From the UHGV virus genome UHGV-0183130: a stretch of DNA of 40,647 nt; one strand, given 5' to 3'. Below, one piece after another: positions 3,169-12,383 of the stretch. This DNA comes from a virus. The first letter of the stretch is position 1, and every line of letters begins with the position of its first letter. Under the pieces are notes generated by a model, which was not told where the DNA came from, searched no databases, and was given only the letters and a program-made list of their open reading frames with translations. The position numbers were made by a program, and so were the translations under genes.

Positions 3169-3759
3169 TTATTGCTGGTCTTCGACGTATATACCAGCAG
3201 AGATGATCGCCCCGCCAATACGCCTGCGTCCGTATAGAAGCGGAACTGGATTACCCTGAGCAGCAGTGTTAGTTACACCACCGAATGCATACGAAGCCCG
3301 ATTTTCGGCATCCTGTTTGCTGGCAAGTCCTGCTGGCTGTGGCGAAAGCATTTGGATTACGCCTCCAGCCATTAATGCAACACCGGGTGCGACCAATGCC
3401 ATACTTGCACCGCCAGTAAAACCTGACAAAGCGTAGCCAGCTACAACAAGGACGGCACCTAATATGGTTTGTAACAGGCCAGCTTTTTTACTACCAATAA
3501 CTACTGGCACGATCCGGATCACTTCACCTGTCGCCGGAAAGCCTAAATCATCTTCCCCAATATTTTTCTTTCCTCGAAAAACTGCATATGTCAGACCGCG
3601 CTGTTTACTTGAATTCATGAAGGCCTCAAACCCTTTCACTGTTGCAGCTAGCGCTCGACAGGCTTCTCGGGTTGAGCTAATTAAACGATGATGCGTCTTA
3701 CCAAAGGTTTTGCCAAGAATCCCGCTCAGTTCAATTTGGGTCATAACTTCTTGCTGCAT
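3169..3759 (-). CDS. I: Tail assembly protein I
   Basis: C-terminal region (LLQTILGAVLVVAGYALSGFTGG...NPVPLLYGRRRIGGAIISAGIYVEDQQ) matches lambda gpI pattern. Start moved to ATG at 3759 (MQQEVMTQ) preceded by GGAGAAGAG SD. Confidence 0.8.
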   Translation of the reverse strand: MQQEVMTQIELSGILGKTFGKTHHRLISSTREACRALAATVKGFEAFMNSSKQRGLTYAVFRGKKNIGEDDLGFPATGEVIRIVPVVIGSKKAGLLQTILGAVLVVAGYALSGFTGGASMALVAPGVALMAGGVIQMLSPQPAGLASKQDAENRASYAFGGVTNTAAQGNPVPLLYGRRRIGGAIISAGIYVEDQQ

Positions 3760-3770
3760 ACTCTTCTCCA

Positions 3771-3796
3771 ATAAAAAAGCCACCCGGAGGTGGCCA
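3771..3796 (-). terminator. Rho-independent terminator after the lipoprotein gene
   Basis: On minus strand: GCCACC-UCCG-GGUGGC hairpin followed by UUUUUUAU; sits between lipoprotein stop (3815) and I start. Confidence 0.55.
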
Positions 3797-3814
3797 TTTA
3801 TAAAATGACTCGAA

Positions 3815-4240
3815 CTATATGGTTGATGCTCTGATATCAAGTCCGGAATTAGTATCTCCGGTGATGCGGAATTTTTGATGTTCACGAGCATTGATCTGCG
3901 TGGCAGTCTCTTTGAGTGGTTGTCCGACCTGCATTCCACATAATCCTTTACCTTTTGAATCGCCAGATATTCCTAGAATATGTCGGCCGGATGTAACATT
4001 GATATCGATCGTTTCTCCCGTATCAATTCTTGCATAGGATTTTCCATCAATAGTTACTTCTACAAAGCATCCACCACCAGCAAACCATCCTTGATCTCGT
4101 GTAATTGTTATCACCGAGTCACCAGCCCCCTTCAGCAATACACGTTCAGATGGTACTTGTTTTGCAACGGTAGAATTCACCGCCGTGGTTGAACACCCAG
4201 CAACGCTAAGCGCAATTAGAAGCAGCAAAGTCTTTTTCAT
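3815..4240 (-). CDS. Predicted lipoprotein (accessory/moron gene)
   Basis: Start at ATG 4240 gives MKKTLLLLIALSVAGCSTTAV: signal peptide with lipobox VAGC; SD-like GGTGA upstream; own terminator downstream. Confidence 0.6.
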   Translation of the reverse strand: MKKTLLLLIALSVAGCSTTAVNSTVAKQVPSERVLLKGAGDSVITITRDQGWFAGGGCFVEVTIDGKSYARIDTGETIDINVTSGRHILGISGDSKGKGLCGMQVGQPLKETATQINAREHQKFRITGDTNSGLDIRASTI

Positions 4241-4350
4241 ATCCCTATCACCTTTGATTAATTTGCCAAAAGAGTAGCAGGGATCCGGTAACGACAAAAC
4301 CCGCAGTTAAGCGGGTTGGGATAGCAAAAACATTTTAACTGCTTTGAAAT

Positions 4351-5094
4351 TTATGCCACATCAGCACCATGAATCAGATGGCGCAACGCATCAATTCCGT
4401 TAGTGTTGTACCGGAACGCTTCAACCTGTTTACTTGAGTAGGCCGACTTGTCCAGAAAGAACTTGCCATGCGCTTCTGTCTTCAGCTTGTGTGTGTTAGC
4501 AACGCGTCCAATTTTCTGAGCAGAAACCCCCAGCATCTCCCCCACCTCACTCGCAGTGTGGTAATGCTCCTCGATAACAGGTAACGGGATGGCGTCATAA
4601 CCAATAAGCGGATTAATCAACGATGCCGTGAGCACCTGATGTGCCATCGGATCCAATCTAGGAAGCAGAGTAATGATTTCCCGCGCGCTCGCGATATTCT
4701 TCTCCAATGCCTGGGCTTTCAACTGTTCTGCCTTAGCCAATCGGTACTCAGTGATACCTGTGTTGCTTTTTGGCATCGCTGGTAATACCTGCATATCTTC
4801 CAGCTTATCAACCAGAGAACGTCGAACGGCTTTCGATTCACGAGCGGCTACTCGGAGGGCTTGCTTGATAGACATTGTAATTACTTCAATGTCTTGACCA
4901 TTTTTACGACCTACACTTTTTGTGTAGGTCTCCCCTTCAAGCTCATCAACAACCTTCTCAATGAACTTGTTATTTCGGACAGCCGGCTCACCGCATTGCT
5001 TTCGCGCAGCATTCACCATCTCCAGCAAGTACTGGCTATCAATGGTTTTCTCGGTGACATTAGCGCTATTTACTGCTAAATTTAATGAAGTCAT
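4351..5094 (-). CDS. Phage antirepressor-like protein (ANT/KilA-C type C-terminal domain)
   Basis: 247 aa ORF; C-terminal segment HYHTASEVGEMLGVSAQKIGRVANTHKLKTEAHGKF resembles the conserved C-terminal domain of phage antirepressors; adjacent to Arc/Mnt-like regulators. Confidence 0.5.
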   Translation of the reverse strand: MTSLNLAVNSANVTEKTIDSQYLLEMVNAARKQCGEPAVRNNKFIEKVVDELEGETYTKSVGRKNGQDIEVITMSIKQALRVAARESKAVRRSLVDKLEDMQVLPAMPKSNTGITEYRLAKAEQLKAQALEKNIASAREIITLLPRLDPMAHQVLTASLINPLIGYDAIPLPVIEEHYHTASEVGEMLGVSAQKIGRVANTHKLKTEAHGKFFLDKSAYSSKQVEAFRYNTNGIDALRHLIHGADVA

Positions 5095-5171
5095 TGGTTG
5101 GACCCTTATGACAGATTTATGGATAGCCGATAGCCCTAACTATCGGCTTTTCTATTTGCAGCATTGCAAAT

Positions 5172-5840
5172 TCAGTAGATTCTTGGCCTTTCTCCTTCCT
5201 GAAGCTGTAGTTCAGCATGAGTCTTAATCATGTACATAAACGCGGCCCCATCATTGAAACGATCGTGAAGACGGCCTGCGAGCGGAGACTCAATCGCCCT
5301 CAACGCTGGCTCTATCTGGTTAAACCATGCTTCACACATAATCTCGAAATAATCGAACATTGCGTTTGCATTGTGGGCGTGGACTTCTCGATCGCTGAGC
5401 ATCTTCGGTACTGGAAAGTTAATAGATACCTCACGGTCCAGAATGTCTAACACCCAGTGTCGGAATTCTTTAGCAACCGGAGTTCTGGCAAACATAGCGA
5501 CCATGTGTGCGCCACGTAGAGAAAAAACCCTAGTTTCCTGATGCCCACCAGGGGTGGTCAACTTGACCACCCTTGTCATTTTTTCTGTAAACTCATCAAT
5601 ATGACGAGCAAAAATTCGCTGAACAGCTTTATCGTCTGCATATTGAAGCGCGTAACCAATCTGATTAGCGGTCAGCCAGATGCCATCGATATCAGGAGCC
5701 GGCTGCAGAGAAATGCCATGGAAGTTCAGCTCTTCTTTCGTTACACTGTTCATGTCGATATTTCCTGCCAAGGATTTCTTCGATAAGAAACCCAGGGTGT
5801 TCGCGCACTCCTGGGTTTCACTGTTTTTATGCTTGTTCAC
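5172..5840 (-). CDS. Phage antirepressor-like protein (AntA/Bro-N-like N-terminal region)
   Basis: 222 aa ORF (track start is GTG at 5840 with GGGGGGAAG SD; alternative ATG at 5753). Segment ELNFHGISLQPAPDIDGIWLTANQIGYALQY resembles antirepressor N-domains. Directly downstream of the Arc-like gene, as ant follows arc in P22 immI. Confidence 0.5.
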   Translation of the reverse strand: MNKHKNSETQECANTLGFLSKKSLAGNIDMNSVTKEELNFHGISLQPAPDIDGIWLTANQIGYALQYADDKAVQRIFARHIDEFTEKMTRVVKLTTPGGHQETRVFSLRGAHMVAMFARTPVAKEFRHWVLDILDREVSINFPVPKMLSDREVHAHNANAMFDYFEIMCEAWFNQIEPALRAIESPLAGRLHDRFNDGAAFMYMIKTHAELQLQEGERPRIY

Positions 5841-5994
5841 TCTTCCCCCCTTCTAATCCGTACGCTTTCCTCAACTGATAGATGAGCTCAGTATTGAACT
5901 GACGGCACTCATCTTCCCCATTTCTCTCTATCGCCAACCGGACATCTTCAGGAAATCGAACCTTACGCTGGTACATATCTTTAGCTTTTTCCAT
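5827..5994 (-). CDS. Arc-like ribbon-helix-helix repressor
   Basis: Start at ATG 5994 (SD GGAGGGG) gives 55 aa MEKAKDMYQRKVRFPEDVRLAIERNGE..., size and pattern like P22 Arc. The longer track ORF would read through the operator palindromes. Confidence 0.6.
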   Translation of the reverse strand: MEKAKDMYQRKVRFPEDVRLAIERNGEDECRQFNTELIYQLRKAYGLEGGKSEQA

Positions 5995-6007
5995 AACCCC
6001 TCCAATT

Positions 6008-6075
6008 ATGCCCCACGGTGGGACACATAAAGTGTCACACCGTGCGTCATTGATGTCAACCCCACCGTGGGGCAT
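6008..6075. promoter_or_regulatory. Operator region between divergent Arc-like and Mnt-like genes
   Basis: Perfect 15-bp inverted repeat ATGCCCCACGGTGGG (6008-6022) / CCCACCGTGGGGCAT (6061-6075), each holding an 11-bp palindrome (CCCACGGTGGG, CCCACCGTGGG), flanking a central near-palindrome GACACATAAAGTGTC. Confidence 0.5.
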
Positions 6076-6113
6076 AATTTACATAATGTGAACTTTTTGA
6101 GTGAGGCAACCAA

Positions 6114-6557
6114 ATGAGCAGAGAAGATCCTCAACTAAGAATAAGATTACCAATTGAATTAAAAGAAAAAATTGAAGATGCAGCAAAATCCAATAACCGC
6201 TCTATGAATGCTGAAATAGTTCAACGTCTCGACAACAGCTTCCTTAGCGAATTACGTGAAGATGAAGTAATTTCTGCTCAAGATGCAATTCAACTTGTTG
6301 AAAAAGCGAGGGATGAACTCTCTGAAATAATATTCAAAAGGACTTTTTCAGAGATCAACAAAAAGGTACGGATTGGTCATTCCACATTCCATATTCATCT
6401 CAGCGATCTTGAGTTGGACGGACTTAGTGACGATGATTTCAACACTGTTTTCAAAAAAACTTTTAGTCGCCTAAAAGAGTTAGGTTACGAAGTCTGGGAA
6501 AAGACTTGGGATGCGGATGGTTTTGGGGTGGAAATTCCAGGGGAACAGTCCACCTAA
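6114..6557 (+). CDS. Mnt-like ribbon-helix-helix repressor with C-terminal extension
   Basis: N-terminus MSREDPQLRIRLPIELKEKIEDAAKSNNRSMNAEIVQRLDNSF parallels P22 Mnt; 147 aa, AT-rich; divergent from the Arc-like gene. Confidence 0.6.
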   Translation: MSREDPQLRIRLPIELKEKIEDAAKSNNRSMNAEIVQRLDNSFLSELREDEVISAQDAIQLVEKARDELSEIIFKRTFSEINKKVRIGHSTFHIHLSDLELDGLSDDDFNTVFKKTFSRLKELGYEVWEKTWDADGFGVEIPGEQST

Positions 6558-6563
6558 ATGGGC

Positions 6564-7274
6564 TTAAGCTAGAGTCTTATAGCGAAGTACCTTCATTGTT
6601 CTTTCTTGCCAGTAGCCGCCGTATGGCACACGTTGGCTGAGGTGCCCATACAGGTGATGCAACAGCATGTTACCTTCCAGTAGAATTCCCGCGTGATTCC
6701 ACTTATTGGCCTGGACCTGCATGATAACCATATCACCTGGCTGCGGTACGCCACTGAATTCACGGAATCCGCATTCATACCAGCAATCGTGGTAGAAGTT
6801 TTCGGGATAACTGTCTTCCCACCAGGGATAATCCACGCGGTAATCCGTCAGCTCAATGCCATGCGTTTGCCGGAAATAGCTCATCACCAGCCCCCAGCAA
6901 TCGAAATGACCGAGCACAAATGGGCGCTCAAGTAGCGGCAACTCGCCCCGCGGCTGAATGGTACGCAGATCCCCCTCCGGCCAGCTGAGGATATGCCACG
7001 GAAGTAACGTAGCGTCACACTGTGCCTTATCCAGTTCGCTCGGCTGTGTCGTTGCGTCCGGGTGACTGTGGACAATGGCAATCACTGTTCCCCAGTCTTC
7101 GGCAGCGGCATAATCTTCCGGCGACAGGTGGAAATGCTCTGTCGGATCGGTTGCCAGATTACGGCAAGGAATGTACCGCTGCACCCTGCTTTTTTGCACC
7201 ACTACGCCGCAGCATTCGCGGGGATATTCAGAAGCGGCATGCGCCATAATGGCGTCGATAATTTTCTGACGCAT
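6564..7274 (-). CDS. K: Tail assembly protein K
   Basis: 236 aa; lambda position between L and I; strong resemblance to gpK including the HSHP motif region (AIVHSHPDATTQPSELD). Confidence 0.85.
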   Translation of the reverse strand: MRQKIIDAIMAHAASEYPRECCGVVVQKSRVQRYIPCRNLATDPTEHFHLSPEDYAAAEDWGTVIAIVHSHPDATTQPSELDKAQCDATLLPWHILSWPEGDLRTIQPRGELPLLERPFVLGHFDCWGLVMSYFRQTHGIELTDYRVDYPWWEDSYPENFYHDCWYECGFREFSGVPQPGDMVIMQVQANKWNHAGILLEGNMLLHHLYGHLSQRVPYGGYWQERTMKVLRYKTLA

Positions 7275-8378: not shown

Positions 8379-10895
8379 TTACCTCTGTTTTGTTGCATTC
8401 CAGATAATGCCTCCGGGTCGGACCTCTCTGGTGATACCTTCCCTGATGGAACTGTTGATCACCTGCTGATAGGCTTTCCCCAGCGCATCGCCGTTTCCTT
8501 TCTGCTGACCGGAATCCCCCTGGCCTGTTGTAACCGAAACCGGTGCATACACGCTGACACCAAAAGGAGAAGCAACGCCAGCGCCACTCCCCCCGACCAG
8601 GCCACCAGTCGCATAACCACGCATCATGCGATAAAGGTTGCCGACACCGATTCGGTTGGTGGCTTCCTGCGTAAAGACAAACTCTCCACGGTGCACCACA
8701 CCTGCAGGCTCATACTTACCGCCGGTCCCGGTAAAACCACCGCCAGCAAAACCCAGCGCAGAAGTGGCAGAACTGACCAGGCCAGCCATGGCCTGCTTCA
8801 TCAGGATCTGCGTCAGCATCGACAACGTGGAACGGGTGAAATCTGCCCAGTTTGCTTTCCCAGTCGTCAGCATATCGGCCATATTCTGGCTGATACCATC
8901 GAATGTGGCTGAAGCAGCGGACTTCATCGAACCATAGGCATCAGCTGCTGAATCGGCATAGTCAGCCCACGCTGATTTCGCCCCGGCCTGCCAGTTGCCA
9001 CGTAGCTCGTCCTGCGCGGCATAATATTTCTTCAGTGCATCCAGTTCGTTCTGATAACCCTGATCGGTGTCCGTACCGCCGGCATTCATCCAGCCCTGCC
9101 GCAGCTGTGCCTCTTCGTTTTGCCGCTGCGCGCCGCGACTGCTCATGCTGCCCCCGGCCACAAGCGCTCGTGTTTTCTCCCCAATCTGGGTAACGTACTT
9201 CTGCGAGCTGTCCTGCAGGCGGTTTAACCGTTCCTGGGCAACAATCTGATCGCCCAACCGGGCATTCACTTCGGCCCGCGCCAGTACCTCGTCTTTGTTC
9301 GCCAGCACCGATTTTTCATCGGCGGTCAGCGCGCGCTTTTTGGCGGCCTCTTCCAGCACCGAAAAGCGGGATTGCTGTTTCCACAATTCCAGCCGCTGCT
9401 GGCTGATGGTATCCGTGATGCTCTTATGCTCCTGCAGAGTGCGTAACTGCGCCTCCAGCTCCAGCGTCTGTGCGCTGGCAGTATCGACACTTTTTACACC
9501 TGCAGGTGTTTTTACCGCTGAAGGGGCTTTGGGTTTCTTCAGCGAGTCGTCGTATTCTTTTTTCGCAGCTTCCAGATTGATGTTGTAGTCAGCCTGGAGG
9601 ATCCGTCCGTCTTTCAGCGCCTTGTTCAGTTCATTCTGACGGGCCGTGTACTTCTCCAGCGCAGTCTGCGTCTTTGCATAATTCGACTGCGCCTGCGCGG
9701 CATACTTCTGGCGGTCAGATTCAATCACTGCCTCGCGGGCGGCGTTATCCTCAGTGGCCTTTGCCACACTGGCCTGCTGCTGAGCCATTTCCAGTGCAAG
9801 GCGGGCAGACTCCCGATCGTTCCAGTAGCTGGCGCGCGCATCATCATTGACATAAGAATCACCTTTACGCAGATTCCAGATTTCATCCGCCCGCTTAAAG
9901 GCCGCTTCCGCTTTGGCAACCATCTCCTGCGTGGTGTCAGGCCGCCCAATATCGAGCGCCGCATCCCACATCGATTTAAAGGCACGCTTCAGGCTGTCGG
10001 CAGCAGTCTCAATCGACCCCATATTGTCGCGCAGGCTCTTTGTCTGTTCGCGAAAACCGTTCGTCGCCGCATCATTAGCTGCCTGTAGAGCCCCGGCCTC
10101 ATCCCCGGCACGCTGCAGTTGCGCCACATAAGCAATCTGTTCCGCGGTAACGTTGTGGAACTGTTGCGCCATAGCAATAAGGCCTGAAGTCGGATCATTC
10201 GTCAGTTTGCCAAATGCCGCTGCCACCTTGTCGACCGGCACGCCCGACGCATCGGTGAACTTCGCTACCGCCTGACTCATCTCATCGAACCGGGCACCGG
10301 CACGCACTCCGGCGTTGACCAGCTCCGTCAGCGCGCTGCTGGTCTGGTTAAACGTGAGTCCCGCCTGCTCGCCGGATTTCGCCAGCACCAGCATGCGGTT
10401 TGAGGTCAGCCCGGCAGTGTTACCGGACAGGACCAGCGTTTTGTTGAAATCAGACAGCGTGGACGAGCCCTGATACCAGGCGTAAACCACCGCTCCAGTG
10501 GCGGCAGCCAGCGCGCCAACACCTACCATCACCGGCGATATGGTGCCCAGCAACGCCCGAAAGGTCGGAATAATACCGCCGAAGGAGTCTTTCACCTGAC
10601 CGCCCTGCTGCAGCAGGATAAGCCACGGACTCTGCCCACCGGCCAGCTGGGTGGCAATATCCGTAAACTGCGCAGGCAGCATACGCATCGCCGCGTTGTA
10701 CTGTCCTACAGAAATGCCGGCCTTCTTCGCGGCGCTCTCCTGGCGGGTAAATGACTGCTGCACCTTCAGCGCCGAGTCATTCGCTGCGTCACCCGTCTGC
10801 TTAAACTGCCTTTTTACGTACTCCATCTGCTCGTTGAACTTTGACGAATTAACGTCAAGGTTAACGACCAGGTCACCCACTGCCGTCTGGGCCAT
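8379..10895 (-). CDS. H: Tail length tape measure protein H
   Basis: About 838 aa; start moved to ATG 10895 (MAQTAVGDLVV, SD AGGAGG), paralleling lambda gpH MAEPVGDLVV; many conserved blocks (AGISVGQY..AAMRMLPAQFTD..QSPWLILLQQGGQVKDSFGG). Confidence 0.9.
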   Translation of the reverse strand: MAQTAVGDLVVNLDVNSSKFNEQMEYVKRQFKQTGDAANDSALKVQQSFTRQESAAKKAGISVGQYNAAMRMLPAQFTDIATQLAGGQSPWLILLQQGGQVKDSFGGIIPTFRALLGTISPVMVGVGALAAATGAVVYAWYQGSSTLSDFNKTLVLSGNTAGLTSNRMLVLAKSGEQAGLTFNQTSSALTELVNAGVRAGARFDEMSQAVAKFTDASGVPVDKVAAAFGKLTNDPTSGLIAMAQQFHNVTAEQIAYVAQLQRAGDEAGALQAANDAATNGFREQTKSLRDNMGSIETAADSLKRAFKSMWDAALDIGRPDTTQEMVAKAEAAFKRADEIWNLRKGDSYVNDDARASYWNDRESARLALEMAQQQASVAKATEDNAAREAVIESDRQKYAAQAQSNYAKTQTALEKYTARQNELNKALKDGRILQADYNINLEAAKKEYDDSLKKPKAPSAVKTPAGVKSVDTASAQTLELEAQLRTLQEHKSITDTISQQRLELWKQQSRFSVLEEAAKKRALTADEKSVLANKDEVLARAEVNARLGDQIVAQERLNRLQDSSQKYVTQIGEKTRALVAGGSMSSRGAQRQNEEAQLRQGWMNAGGTDTDQGYQNELDALKKYYAAQDELRGNWQAGAKSAWADYADSAADAYGSMKSAASATFDGISQNMADMLTTGKANWADFTRSTLSMLTQILMKQAMAGLVSSATSALGFAGGGFTGTGGKYEPAGVVHRGEFVFTQEATNRIGVGNLYRMMRGYATGGLVGGSGAGVASPFGVSVYAPVSVTTGQGDSGQQKGNGDALGKAYQQVINSSIREGITREVRPGGIIWNATKQR

Positions 10896-11238
10896 AGCGA
10901 ACACCTCCTGAAATGCCCTCGGCCTTTGCCATCAGCACAGCGTCACCAGGTTCATCATCGGCAATATCCTCCGCAGAAGGTGAAAGCAGGCTGAAGCTGG
11001 CAGGGGTTGATGTGGTTTTGGGGTCAAGCGCGGTAATGACGATATGCATCAGCGAGGAAAAATGTGCATCCAGTTGCGCATCATTAAAAAAATTGTCCTG
11101 GTAGAACGTTCGCCAGTCGGCGTATTCCGTTGACGACATACCAGCAAGCATGGCGCGCCAGTCCGGGCGGCGAAATTCACGCGCCAGTTTCAGGACGAAT
11201 GTCAGCTCGCTGGCGAGGACTTTTCCAGACTGACCGGC
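10873..11238 (-). CDS. T: T segment of tail assembly chaperone GT, reached from G by programmed -1 frameshift
   Basis: The -1 frame relative to G is open from 11238 to the stop at 10873 and overlaps the last 12 codons of G; candidate slip site GGAAAAG at 11220-11226. G/GT frameshifting is conserved in lambda-like tails. Confidence 0.7.
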   Translation of the reverse strand, partial: AGQSGKVLASELTFVLKLAREFRRPDWRAMLAGMSSTEYADWRTFYQDNFFNDAQLDAHFSSLMHIVITALDPKTTSTPASFSLLSPSAEDIADDEPGDAVLMAKAEGISGGVRYGPDGSG

Positions 11239-11609
11239 TCAGTCACAGCGATATCCTCTGGATCATTCGCTTCCTGCAGCGGCACCATGCCGGATAACAG
11301 CTTCACGCTGTACTCTGCAGCGGAAACAATCTCCAGCGGCCAGGTCATCAGCACTTCATTCTGGATCTGCTCAACGTCTTCTTTCGGTGTTTTGTGCGTC
11401 CCTTTCAGGGGATGTCCATGCCATAAAGACATGGCCACCAGCAGTGCGCCGGATTTAATCGTCATATCCATCGCCGCCTGCATGTCGGCATCGGTGATAC
11501 TTTCCAGCGTCTTCAGGTGTTCAAGATGCTCAATACGCTGCAGCGCCGACAGTTCGTAGAGCGTGACGGTCTTGCCGTTGCGTTCGAACGGCTCACTTTT
11601 TAAAAACAT
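11202..11609 (-). CDS. G: Tail assembly chaperone G
   Basis: 135 aa MFLKSEPFERNGKTVTLYELSALQRIEHL... closely parallels lambda gpG. Confidence 0.85.
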   Translation of the reverse strand: MFLKSEPFERNGKTVTLYELSALQRIEHLEHLKTLESITDADMQAAMDMTIKSGALLVAMSLWHGHPLKGTHKTPKEDVEQIQNEVLMTWPLEIVSAAEYSVKLLSGMVPLQEANDPEDIAVTEPVSLEKSSPAS

Positions 11610-11645
11610 GGGTTACTCCGGAAAGCGGGGCCACAGCCCCGGAAG

Positions 11646-12383
11646 TCAGGAAACGGTGACTTTACAGGTCGCGACAAAAAGCCCGTCGTTGGTCATCACG
11701 ATAATGTCGGCGGTTCCGGCGGCAATGCCGGTTACTGTCAGAACCGTACCGGCGACAGTCACTGTGGCTTTACCTGCATCCGTGGTGGTGGCCCGGAAAG
11801 ATGGATCGCTTGCGCTGGCTGGCGCCACGGTGACATTCAGCGTGGTGGTGGCAGCAACCGCAACGGTGGTGGTCGATTTATCCAGGCTGACGCCGGTTAC
11901 GGCAATCGCTGCAGCAGCGCTGTCTTCAGCAAGACCTGGTTTGCCGTTGTTGCTGATCTTGACAGAACGGGTAATGGTGTCTTTTGCCGTCACCGTTTTA
12001 CCCAGGCTGCTTACCCAGCCACGGAACACATCGATGGCGCCATTCGGGTATTTGATTTTGTACGCCAGCACGGTACCGTCATCAAACCAGCGAACCAGAT
12101 CCTGCTGCCCGCTCTCGGCAGGTTTCCAGGCCAGCGTAAAACTGGCCTCCCCCGCCGATTTCTGCCCCTGCGCGGTAGCAGTCCAGTCGGCATCTTCGTC
12201 GTCCAGATAGGTGTCGTCGTTTGATTCGGCAGTCAGTTCACCGGGCTGCAGGTCTTTAATCTTTGCCAGGCGCGTCCAGTCAACATCCGATAATGGGTTG
12301 GCGAAGGGGTTACCCGATCCGGAATAAATCCAGAGCGTGGTGGTGGCACCCTTTACCGGCGCCAGTGGGTTTGGTGTAGTCAT
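11646..12383 (-). CDS. V: Major tail protein V
   Basis: 245 aa; N-terminus MTTPNPLAPVKGATTTLWIYSGSGNPFANPLSDVDWTRLAK parallels lambda gpV; C-terminal Ig-like region. Confidence 0.9.
   Translation of the reverse strand: MTTPNPLAPVKGATTTLWIYSGSGNPFANPLSDVDWTRLAKIKDLQPGELTAESNDDTYLDDEDADWTATAQGQKSAGEASFTLAWKPAESGQQDLVRWFDDGTVLAYKIKYPNGAIDVFRGWVSSLGKTVTAKDTITRSVKISNNGKPGLAEDSAAAAIAVTGVSLDKSTTTVAVAATTTLNVTVAPASASDPSFRATTTDAGKATVTVAGTVLTVTGIAAGTADIIVMTNDGLFVATCKVTVS

What the first reader, a model, noticed from the sequence alone, without database searches (positions are those of the whole stretch)
11201..11241. G/GT frameshift window with a non-lambda slippery heptamer
The T frame opens only 12 codons before the G stop, so the -1 shift must occur in 11201-11238. 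The only A/G-rich candidate is GGAAAAG (11220-11226), whereas lambda as I recall it uses GGGAAAG. A GAA codon in the P-site would re-pair poorly after slippage, suggesting a single-tRNA (Lys at AAG) slip.
Basis: partly seen in the sequence, partly recalled or inferred. Interest (0 to 1): 0.4.

Follow-up and report, generated by a model that had tools for sequence, protein, structure and literature searches.

The report
Known N15-type G/GT frameshift site
This is the ordinary tail-chaperone (G/GT) ribosomal frameshift site of a lambda-like prophage; its GGAAAAG slip sequence differs from lambda's by one base but is the common, already annotated form in phages N15, phi80 and Gifsy-2.

Summary
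Gene G (11609..11202) overlaps a -1 frame that opens at 11238 and encodes a lambda-T homologue. G_GAA_AAG (11226..11220) is the only slip-prone motif in the 12-codon overlap. Lambda has G_GGA_AAG at the homologous position.

The heptamer is not new. N15's GenBank record annotates the same GGAAAAG at the same position as the "slippery sequence for -1 translational frameshift". It also occurs in phi80, HK225, mEp237, Gifsy-2, Fels-1, mEp460 and about 110 prophage loci.

All three heptamer codons show zero synonymous variation across 90 distinct GT sequences, whereas the neighbouring codons vary freely.

The "single-tRNA slip" reading is only partly supported. tRNA-Lys re-pairing (AAG to AAA) is clearly the driver. 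But heptamer base 1 is an invariant G behind four different preceding codons. Base 1 also equals base 2 in every subfamily (G_G, A_A, C_C). This points to the P-site tRNA re-pairing as well, with a central G·U.

A side lead is a roughly 75-nt stem-loop starting 5 nt downstream. It is predicted in lambda, N15 and this prophage, but the evidence is mixed.

Verdict: already known, low interest.

The parts
11202..11609 (-). Gene G, tail assembly chaperone (135 aa); zero frame; stop TGA at 11204-11202
   Evidence: ORF and translation. Pfam Phage_TAC_2, E 1.6e-43. PHROG 42.
11220..11226 (-). Slippery heptamer G_GAA_AAG (G 11226; GAA 11225-11223; AAG 11222-11220)
   Evidence: Sequence. It is the only candidate in the overlap. 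It is invariant in relatives. It is identical to the slippery sequence annotated in N15.
11239..11241 (-). TGA in the -1 frame; the T frame is open from 11238 downstream
10873..11220 (-). T segment read in the -1 frame after the shift (VLASELTFVLKLAREF... to stop 10875-10873). The predicted GT fusion is join(11609..11220, 11220..10873), 245 aa
   Evidence: Translation. Pfam Phage_tail_T, E 5.4e-12. PHROG 39. Amino-acid conservation in the -1 frame begins directly at the heptamer, upstream of the first ATG at 11151.
11140..11214 (-). Candidate downstream RNA structure, not established. Outer stem 11214-11205 pairs with 11149-11140 and starts 5 nt after the heptamer. Inner GC stem 11186-11179 pairs with 11158-11151. 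Apical hairpin 11174-11171 pairs with 11165-11162
   Evidence: Minimum-free-energy fold. Same architecture in 8 relatives and in the RNAalifold consensus. Pair counts. The synonymous-codon shuffle is weak for the window itself.
11646..12383 (-). Gene V, major tail tube protein with a C-terminal Ig-like domain (upstream neighbour)
   Evidence: Pfam Phage_TTP_12 and Big_2.
8379..10895 (-). Gene H, tape measure protein (downstream neighbour). The likely start is ATG 10895, behind AGGAGG at 10909-10904, and it overlaps the end of T
   Evidence: Pfam TMP_2 and Tape_meas_lam_C. Sequence.

Best explanation
A small fraction of ribosomes translating gene G shift back one base on G_GAA_AAG (11226..11220, minus strand). 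They continue in the -1 frame to make a G-T fusion (...VSLEK|VLASELTF...). This is the tail assembly chaperone that links the tape measure protein to the tail tube protein, as in lambda.

The shift is driven by the A-site tRNA-Lys (anticodon mnm5s2UUU) moving from AAG to the fully cognate AAA. The P-site tRNA-Glu (mnm5s2UUC) moves with it from GAA to GGA, keeping the first and third pairs and a G·U in the middle. This makes it a near-cognate two-tRNA slip rather than a Lys-only slip.

The heptamer is intrinsically weaker than lambda's G_GGA_AAG, so the yield is expected to be low (a few percent or less). A base-paired element starting 5 nt downstream may help.

Shown: gene identities, frame geometry, the uniqueness and evolutionary invariance of the heptamer, and its identity with the annotated N15 site.

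Inferred: that the shift occurs, its efficiency, the role of the P-site tRNA, and any stimulator.

My confidence that this heptamer is the G/GT shift site is about 0.95. The 0.65 given below is for the full statement, including the P-site contribution.
For: - Gene order V-G-T-H, with Pfam Phage_TTP_12 / Phage_TAC_2 / Phage_tail_T / TMP_2.
- The -1 frame is open only from 11238, and G stops at 11204-11202.
- The T-frame amino-acid sequence is conserved from the heptamer onward and upstream of its first ATG.
- GGAAAAG is the only candidate in the overlap.
- It sits at the position of lambda's GGGAAAG and of N15's annotated slippery sequence.
- Among about 120 related loci first collected, GGAAAAG is present in 96, GGGAAAG in 22 and GGCAAAG in 1. 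It is also present in phi80, Gifsy-2, Fels-1 and mEp460.
- Comparative footprint: L055 has a -1-frame stop two codons before the heptamer, and L013, L016, L020 and L021 end G one codon after it. The only shared permissible interval is 16 nt (TCT GGAAAAG CCC TGA).
- There are 0 synonymous differences at the three heptamer codons against 654, 1321 and 1518 expected.
- P-site involvement: base 1 is an invariant G behind GCG, CTG, GTG and CCG, and base 1 equals base 2 in the G_G, A_A and C_C subfamilies.
- Literature: A_AAG is the most shift-prone tetramer in E. coli. Tetramer motifs without a stimulator were on average only marginally above the no-motif level. GGGAAAG gives 0.28% unaided and 3.8% with the IS911 stimulators (PMC4066793).
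- NNA_AAG motifs and G_GA-type imperfect P-site re-pairing are established classes (PMC5009743).
Against: - No experiment here shows that the fusion protein is made.
[quoted passage not shown] The P-site contribution may therefore be small.
- G-ending codons (GCG, CTG, GTG, CCG) are the most used codons for their amino acids in this prophage: 35%, 57% and 46% for Ala, Leu and Pro. Part of the base-1 conservation could be codon preference plus shared ancestry.
- One relative (L121) has G_GCA_AAG, where P-site re-pairing would be poor.
Confidence: 0.65

Rival explanations
1. Pure single-tRNA slip. Only tRNA-Lys re-pairs (AAG to AAA), either in the A site or as peptidyl-tRNA in the P site with an empty A site. 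Bases 1-3 of the heptamer contribute nothing beyond supplying the A before AAG.
For: A_AAG alone is the best tetramer motif in E. coli, reaching 5.6% with a strong pseudoknot (PMC4066793). Peng et al. treat G_GAA_AAG as a one-tRNA sequence because of the second-position mismatch. L121 keeps A_AAG but has GCA in the P site. NNA_AAG hexanucleotide sites work in IS1222 and B. subtilis cdd.
Against: It does not explain why heptamer base 1, a synonymous site, is invariant G across 57 distinct sequences and four different preceding codons, while neighbouring third positions show all four bases. It does not explain why base 1 tracks base 2 in the AAAAAAG and CCCAAAA subfamilies. The codon after AAG is not conserved (TCC, CCC, TGT, TAC, CAT), which argues against a hungry-codon, empty-A-site route.
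Confidence: 0.25
2. The site is not used. T is made by independent initiation (for example at ATG 11151), or the prophage is decaying and makes no GT.
For: There is an ATG at 11151 in the T frame. No expression data were available.
Against: There is no Shine-Dalgarno-like sequence ahead of ATG 11151. About 23 T-frame codons upstream of that ATG are conserved as protein, with third-position variation. Heptamer invariance would be unexplained. The GT coding region is 100% identical in an independent IMG/VR contig and 93-97% identical in Kluyvera genomes, with intact frames.
Confidence: 0.04
3. The frame change happens elsewhere or by another route: transcriptional slippage on the A4 run, or ribosomal slippage at another position in 11238..11203.
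For: None found.
Against: A run of four A is, from general knowledge of the field, far shorter than the homopolymer runs that support RNA-polymerase slippage. No other in-frame motif in the overlap allows A-site re-pairing. The permissible interval shared by relatives is 16 nt centred on the heptamer.
Confidence: 0.02

Closest known systems
Phage N15 genes 14/15 (GenBank AF064539; misc_feature 10027-10033, 'slippery sequence for -1 translational frameshift')
   Same: Identical heptamer GGAAAAG at the homologous position of homologous G and T genes, in the same V-G-T-H order. The downstream sequence is nearly identical (GCCAGTGAGCTGA...).
   Different: About 69% nucleotide identity over G-T. 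The preceding codon is GCG (Ala) rather than CTG (Leu). The host is different (E. coli linear plasmid prophage versus a Kluyvera-type integrated prophage).
Phage lambda G/GT frameshift at G_GGA_AAG (Levin, Hendrix and Casjens 1993, as cited in PMC5009743 and PMC3296357)
   Same: Homologous genes, same position, same direction of shift and the same A-site codon AAG. The function is known: the G:GT ratio of about 30:1 is critical for tail assembly.
   Different: Heptamer base 3 is G in lambda, which is fully canonical X_XXY_YYZ with a P-site tRNA-Gly. Here it is A, with a P-site tRNA-Glu and a central G·U after the shift. In vitro G_GAA_AAG is less slippery.
phi80, HK225, mEp237, Gifsy-2, Fels-1 and mEp460 G/T pairs
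   Same: The same GGAAAAG heptamer just before the T domain. The Gifsy-2 record annotates the T homologue as part of a frameshift hybrid protein.
   Different: T-domain identity to the window is 46-68%. The Gifsy-type phages have CCG before the heptamer, and G ends one codon after it.
NNA_AAG 'hexanucleotide' sites: IS3 C_CAA_AAG, IS1222 G_CGA_AAG, B. subtilis cdd A_CGA_AAG (Licznar et al. 2003, via PMC5009743)
   Same: tRNA-Lys re-pairs from AAG to AAA, with a P-site NNA codon that cannot re-pair perfectly.
   Different: These are transposase or cellular genes. IS3 uses a strong pseudoknot. Here the P-site re-pairing is better (two Watson-Crick pairs plus G·U), and any stimulator is unproven.
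E. coli dnaX A_AAA_AAG
   Same: A -1 shift on tRNA-Lys at AAG in an enterobacterial host.
   Different: dnaX has a fully canonical heptamer plus a proven upstream Shine-Dalgarno-like element and a downstream stem-loop, and about 50% efficiency. No conserved Shine-Dalgarno-like element is seen here.

Membership tests
Tailed-phage tail assembly chaperone G/GT programmed -1 frameshift (Xu, Hendrix and Duda 2004 class) | Two overlapping ORFs lying between the major tail protein gene and the tape measure gene | tested here: met
   The order V (11646-12383), G (11202-11609), T (10873-11238), H (8379-10895) is all on the minus strand. The Pfam assignments agree.
Tailed-phage tail assembly chaperone G/GT programmed -1 frameshift (Xu, Hendrix and Duda 2004 class) | [quoted passage not shown] | tested here: met
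   The frame offset was verified. Conserved T-frame residues start at the heptamer, 23 codons before the first ATG. No Shine-Dalgarno-like sequence lies ahead of that ATG.
Tailed-phage tail assembly chaperone G/GT programmed -1 frameshift (Xu, Hendrix and Duda 2004 class) | A conserved slippery sequence inside the overlap | tested here: met
   GGAAAAG is unique in the overlap and invariant in relatives.
Tailed-phage tail assembly chaperone G/GT programmed -1 frameshift (Xu, Hendrix and Duda 2004 class) | Sequence homology to lambda gpG and gpT | tested here: met
   Phage_TAC_2 E 1.6e-43 and Phage_tail_T E 5.4e-12. About 66% nucleotide identity to lambda G-T.
Tailed-phage tail assembly chaperone G/GT programmed -1 frameshift (Xu, Hendrix and Duda 2004 class) | A G-T fusion protein is actually made at a low ratio to G | not testable with these tools
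   This needs protein analysis or a reporter assay.
Canonical X_XXY_YYZ slippery heptamer | Bases 1-3 identical (XXX), so that the P-site tRNA re-pairs at its first two positions | tested here: not met
   Bases 1-3 are G, G, A. After the shift the P-site codon is GGA, against a tRNA-Glu anticodon that reads GAA.
Canonical X_XXY_YYZ slippery heptamer | Bases 4-6 identical (YYY), so that the A-site tRNA re-pairs | tested here: met
   AAA followed by G.
A_AAG tetramer / NNA_AAG hexanucleotide motifs (Licznar 2003; Sharma 2014) | An in-frame AAG codon preceded by A | tested here: met
   GAA_AAG is in the G frame.
A_AAG tetramer / NNA_AAG hexanucleotide motifs (Licznar 2003; Sharma 2014) | The host decodes AAA and AAG with a single tRNA-Lys (UUU anticodon) | not tested
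   The host is inferred to be Kluyvera or another member of the Enterobacteriaceae from the nearest relatives. Its tRNA set was not examined, and the window carries no tRNA genes.
A_AAG tetramer / NNA_AAG hexanucleotide motifs (Licznar 2003; Sharma 2014) | A stimulatory element, needed for percent-level shifting on such weak motifs | tested here: inconclusive
   A candidate stem-loop lies 5 nt downstream. It is supported, and weakened and by Sharma et al. Table S8. There is no conserved upstream Shine-Dalgarno-like sequence and no Rfam match.

The most novel reading that the evidence does not exclude
The lambda/N15/Stx/Kluyvera-type G-T genes share an unrecognised frameshift stimulator of about 75 nt. 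Its outer stem of 7-10 bp starts 5-7 nt after the heptamer and pairs the codons for (A/T)(S/G)EL with those for MLAG. It encloses a GC-rich inner stem and an apical hairpin. This element, rather than the heptamer alone, would set the G:GT ratio and would compensate for the weaker G_GAA_AAG.

The literature I could read describes no stimulator for lambda G-T. Sharma et al. 2014 found only a 54-nt hairpin in 51% of gpG cluster members and judged such hairpins probably fortuitous.
Probability: 0.3. Interest if true: 0.45.

Novelty: already known. Interest (0 to 1): 0.15.

Why it matters
The practical value is modest. The result says where to join G and T when annotating this prophage and its many Kluyvera and Enterobacter relatives. 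It also corrects the impression that GGAAAAG is unusual, because it is the commonest slip site in this chaperone family.

Mechanistically, the family is a natural series at one homologous position: G_GGA_AAG, G_GAA_AAG, A_AAA_AAG, C_CCA_AAA and a single G_GCA_AAG. That series could be used to measure how much an imperfect P-site re-pairing costs in vivo.

In the G_GAA_AAG form both slipping tRNAs (Glu and Lys) carry the 2-thiouridine wobble modification. That modification is known to tune lambda's G:GT ratio (PMC3296357). These phages may therefore be even more sensitive to host tRNA thiolation; this is inference only.

If the downstream structure is real, it would explain how lambda reaches about 4% with a heptamer that gives 0.28% unaided.

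Tried and rejected
- Megablast of G-T against the phage and E. coli genome collections found nothing. Distant blastn, tblastn and pattern scans were needed instead.
- Full-text searches for GGAAAAG or 'GAA AAG' with frameshift or slippery found no phage paper. They found only the in vitro study PMC6924986.
- Licznar et al. 2003 and Xu et al. 2013 are not held. The measured value for GAA_AAG in the IS3 context and Levin's deletion data for lambda could therefore not be checked.
- Rfam has no family over 10800-11700.
- No purine-rich Shine-Dalgarno-like element is conserved in the 12 nt upstream of the heptamer that alignment A2 covers, nor is one apparent in the window sequence further upstream.
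- The small local hairpin CUCG-CCAG-CGAG, 2 nt after the heptamer, was considered and rejected as too close and too weak.
- Independent initiation of T, transcriptional slippage on A4 and a hungry-codon route were considered and rejected (see the rival explanations).
- The structure's significance under a protein-preserving null was tested and is weak for the window itself: z -0.44, with 320 of 1000 shuffles folding as well.
- The outer-stem register is not kept in the Gifsy-2, Fels-1 and mEp460 group.

Full report
**Observation.** The tail genes in this part of the window are on the minus strand. Gene G runs 11609..11202 and encodes 135 aa ending VSLEKSSPAS*, with its stop at 11204-11202. Read one base back, the -1 frame has a TGA at 11241-11239. 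It is then open to 10875-10873 and encodes AGQSGKVLASELTFVLKLAREFRRPDWRAMLAGM.... Plus-strand 11220-11226 (cttttcc) is GGAAAAG on the minus strand, phased CTG_GAA_AAG. It is the only in-frame motif in the overlap whose A-site codon could re-pair after a -1 shift.

**Chance.** Taken alone the motif is unremarkable. GGAAAAG occurs 9 times in the window against 6.4 expected. An in-frame NNA_AAG would turn up in about 7% of 12-codon stretches of this prophage's genes.

**What it is.** The neighbours are a lambda-type tail tube protein V (Phage_TTP_12 plus Big_2) and a tape measure protein H (TMP_2, Tape_meas_lam_C). The two overlapping ORFs match Phage_TAC_2 (lambda gpG) and Phage_tail_T (lambda gpT).
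- The region is only 66-69% identical in DNA to lambda and N15 and has no near-identical match among phage or E. coli records.
- The closest genomes are Kluyvera prophages, at 93-97% amino-acid identity. One IMG/VR contig encodes an identical GT.
- The rest of the window is a lambdoid prophage, with a CI-like repressor and a lambda-type integrase.

**Comparison.**
- In an alignment with lambda, N15, mEp237 and HK225 the heptamer sits exactly where lambda has GCG_GGA_AAG. N15, mEp237 and HK225 have GCG_GAA_AAG.
- The N15 GenBank record (AF064539) carries a misc_feature 'slippery sequence for -1 translational frameshift' at 10027-10033, and that sequence is GGAAAAG.
- Of the roughly 120 related loci first collected, 96 have GGAAAAG, 22 have GGGAAAG (the lambda clade, many of them lambda contamination in unrelated assemblies) and one has GGCAAAG.
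- More distant members of the T family add further cases. phi80, Gifsy-2, Fels-1 and mEp460 have GGAAAAG. Stx2 phages have AAAAAAG. A Vibrio group has CCCAAAA or CCCAAAG. All are at the same place, just before the T domain.
- The 'non-lambda' heptamer is therefore the common, already annotated form.

**Is it under selection?** Yes.
- In 57 distinct sequences the third positions of the four codons upstream of the heptamer each show all four bases. The third positions of the three heptamer codons never vary.
- In a codon alignment of 90 distinct GT sequences, synonymous differences at those three codons are 0 against 654, 1321 and 1518 expected. The six codons before them run at 1.3-2.5 times expectation.
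- In one relative (L055) a -1-frame stop lies two codons before the heptamer. In four others (L013, L016, L020, L021) G ends one codon after it. The only interval open to a shift in all of them is 16 nt centred on GGAAAAG.

**Mechanism.**
- The A-site step is clear. tRNA-Lys moves from AAG to the fully cognate AAA. This is the most shift-prone A-site event in E. coli (Sharma et al. 2014, PMC4066793).
- The P-site tRNA-Glu would move from GAA to GGA, keeping pairs 1 and 3 with a G·U in the middle.
- Peng et al. 2019 used exactly AUG_GAA_AAG against AUG_GGA_AAG in a reconstituted system. They called the former unfavourable because of the second-position mismatch, and it gave mainly zero-frame product (PMC6924986).
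- The comparative data argue that the P site still matters. Heptamer base 1 is a synonymous position, yet it is G behind GCG, CTG, GTG and CCG. In every subfamily base 1 equals base 2 (G_G, A_A, C_C).
- Imperfect P-site triplets such as G_GA, G_GU and C_CA(A) are recognised intermediates between hexanucleotide and heptanucleotide sites (Atkins et al. 2016, PMC5009743).
- I therefore favour a two-tRNA slip with near-cognate P-site re-pairing (0.65) over a Lys-only slip (0.25).
- Caveats: G-ending codons are the preferred ones here, the sequences share ancestry, and one locus (L121) has G_GCA_AAG.

**Efficiency and a possible stimulator.**
- In E. coli reporters GGGAAAG gives 0.28% without a stimulator and 3.8% with the moderate IS911 stimulators. 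Tetramer motifs without a stimulator averaged only marginally above the no-motif level.
- Lambda's native level is about 4%. This suggests that the native context helps, and a weaker heptamer would need help even more.
- The 90 nt after the heptamer fold into a long-range structure (-34.8 kcal/mol, z -2.0). The outer stem GCCAGCGAGC (11214-11205) pairs with GCUUGCUGGU (11149-11140) and starts 5 nt after the heptamer. It encloses a GC stem (11186-11179 with 11158-11151) and an apical hairpin.
- Evidence for the structure:
  - Eight diverse relatives, including lambda and N15, fold the same way on their own, with z from -2.7 to -4.75. RNAalifold finds the same consensus.
  - 93% of cells pair, against 27-52% when the partners are slid.
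  - Pair 28-96 switches A-U to G-C without exception in the main group: 53 against 23 distinct sequences, but at most two independent events.
  - Synonymous conservation is patterned as stems conserved, loops free.
  - The less common codons CTT and GCT sit at outer-stem third positions where pairing needs them. The chance that codon usage alone would make the free third positions pair is about 0.03 for each arm set, computed post hoc.
- Evidence against the structure:
  - With a null that keeps the protein sequence, the window's own fold is not special (z -0.44), and the relatives reach only -1.5 to -2.8.
  - One pair is broken in the Enterobacter and phi80 group, where a shifted register is possible.
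  - The register is lost in Gifsy-2, Fels-1 and mEp460.
  - Part of the 5' arm is also constrained by the G frame.
  - Sharma et al. found only a weak 54-nt hairpin for the gpG cluster and considered such hairpins probably fortuitous.
  - There is no Rfam family and no conserved upstream Shine-Dalgarno-like element.
- I rate the structure as a real stimulator at about 0.3.

**Known or new.** The genes, their arrangement, the recoding event and this exact heptamer at this exact position are all on record: N15, lambda, and the Gifsy-2 annotation 'part of G+G' frameshift hybrid protein'. The site fails the strict X_XXY_YYZ definition at base 3, but it belongs to the documented class of near-canonical and NNA_AAG sites. 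This is an already known feature in one more prophage. Interest is low (0.15). The only part that might be new is the downstream structure, which needs experiments.

**Dead ends** are listed under 'tried and rejected'. In particular, I could not read Levin et al. 1993, Xu et al. 2004 or 2013, or Licznar et al. 2003. My recollection that lambda's G-T site has no described stimulator is therefore unverified.

Noticed in passing
window 11140-11214 (minus strand); alignment A2 columns 25-99: A predicted stem-loop of about 75 nt starts 5 nt after the slip site. It is shared by lambda, N15, Stx, Kluyvera and Enterobacter-type G-T genes. Its stems are conserved at synonymous sites and one base pair covaries (A-U/G-C). 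It is not significant for the window under a protein-preserving shuffle, and it is not kept in Gifsy-type relatives.
   Followed up: partly
window 3815-6557: An island of about 2.7 kb lies between tail genes K (6564-7274) and I (3169-3939). It holds an Arc-like repressor ORF (6114-6557, +), a Bro-N / P22 antirepressor-like ORF (5172-5840, -), an unassigned 247-aa ORF (4351-5094, -) and a lipoprotein-like ORF (3815-4297, -). It looks like an immI-style arc/ant module sitting inside the tail operon.
   Followed up: partly
loci L023-L029, L031-L035, L037-L039, L041 (genome contigs): Assemblies labelled Neobacillus, Oceanobacillus, Kitasatospora, Shewanella, Pseudomonas, Leeuwenhoekiella, Chromatium and others carry G-T DNA that is identical or nearly identical to lambda. 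The contigs are short and low-coverage. This is almost certainly lambda DNA contamination of public assemblies.
   Followed up: no
L121 (IMGVR_UViG_3300048929_000058), locus positions about 1899-1905: This is the only locus among about 250 fetched with GGCAAAG (GCG_GCA_AAG) at the slip site. A_AAG is kept, but P-site re-pairing would be poor. It may be a natural test case or a sequencing error.
   Followed up: no
L228, L240, L242, L253 (Vibrio-phage group) and L055, L013, L016, L020, L021: In some relatives the -1 frame opens exactly at, or two codons before, the heptamer. In others G ends one codon after it. These natural 'deletion maps' pin the shift to the heptamer without any experiment.
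   Followed up: yes
window 10893-10909 (minus strand): The tape measure gene H more likely starts at ATG 10895, 8 nt after AGGAGG (10909-10904), than at the GTG 10904 given by the mechanical ORF list. The H start overlaps the last 7 codons of T.
   Followed up: no
L043 (Shigella flexneri CP182557): The lambda-type G gene is interrupted after 29 codons, and the T region carries a frame disruption. This is a decayed prophage copy.
   Followed up: no
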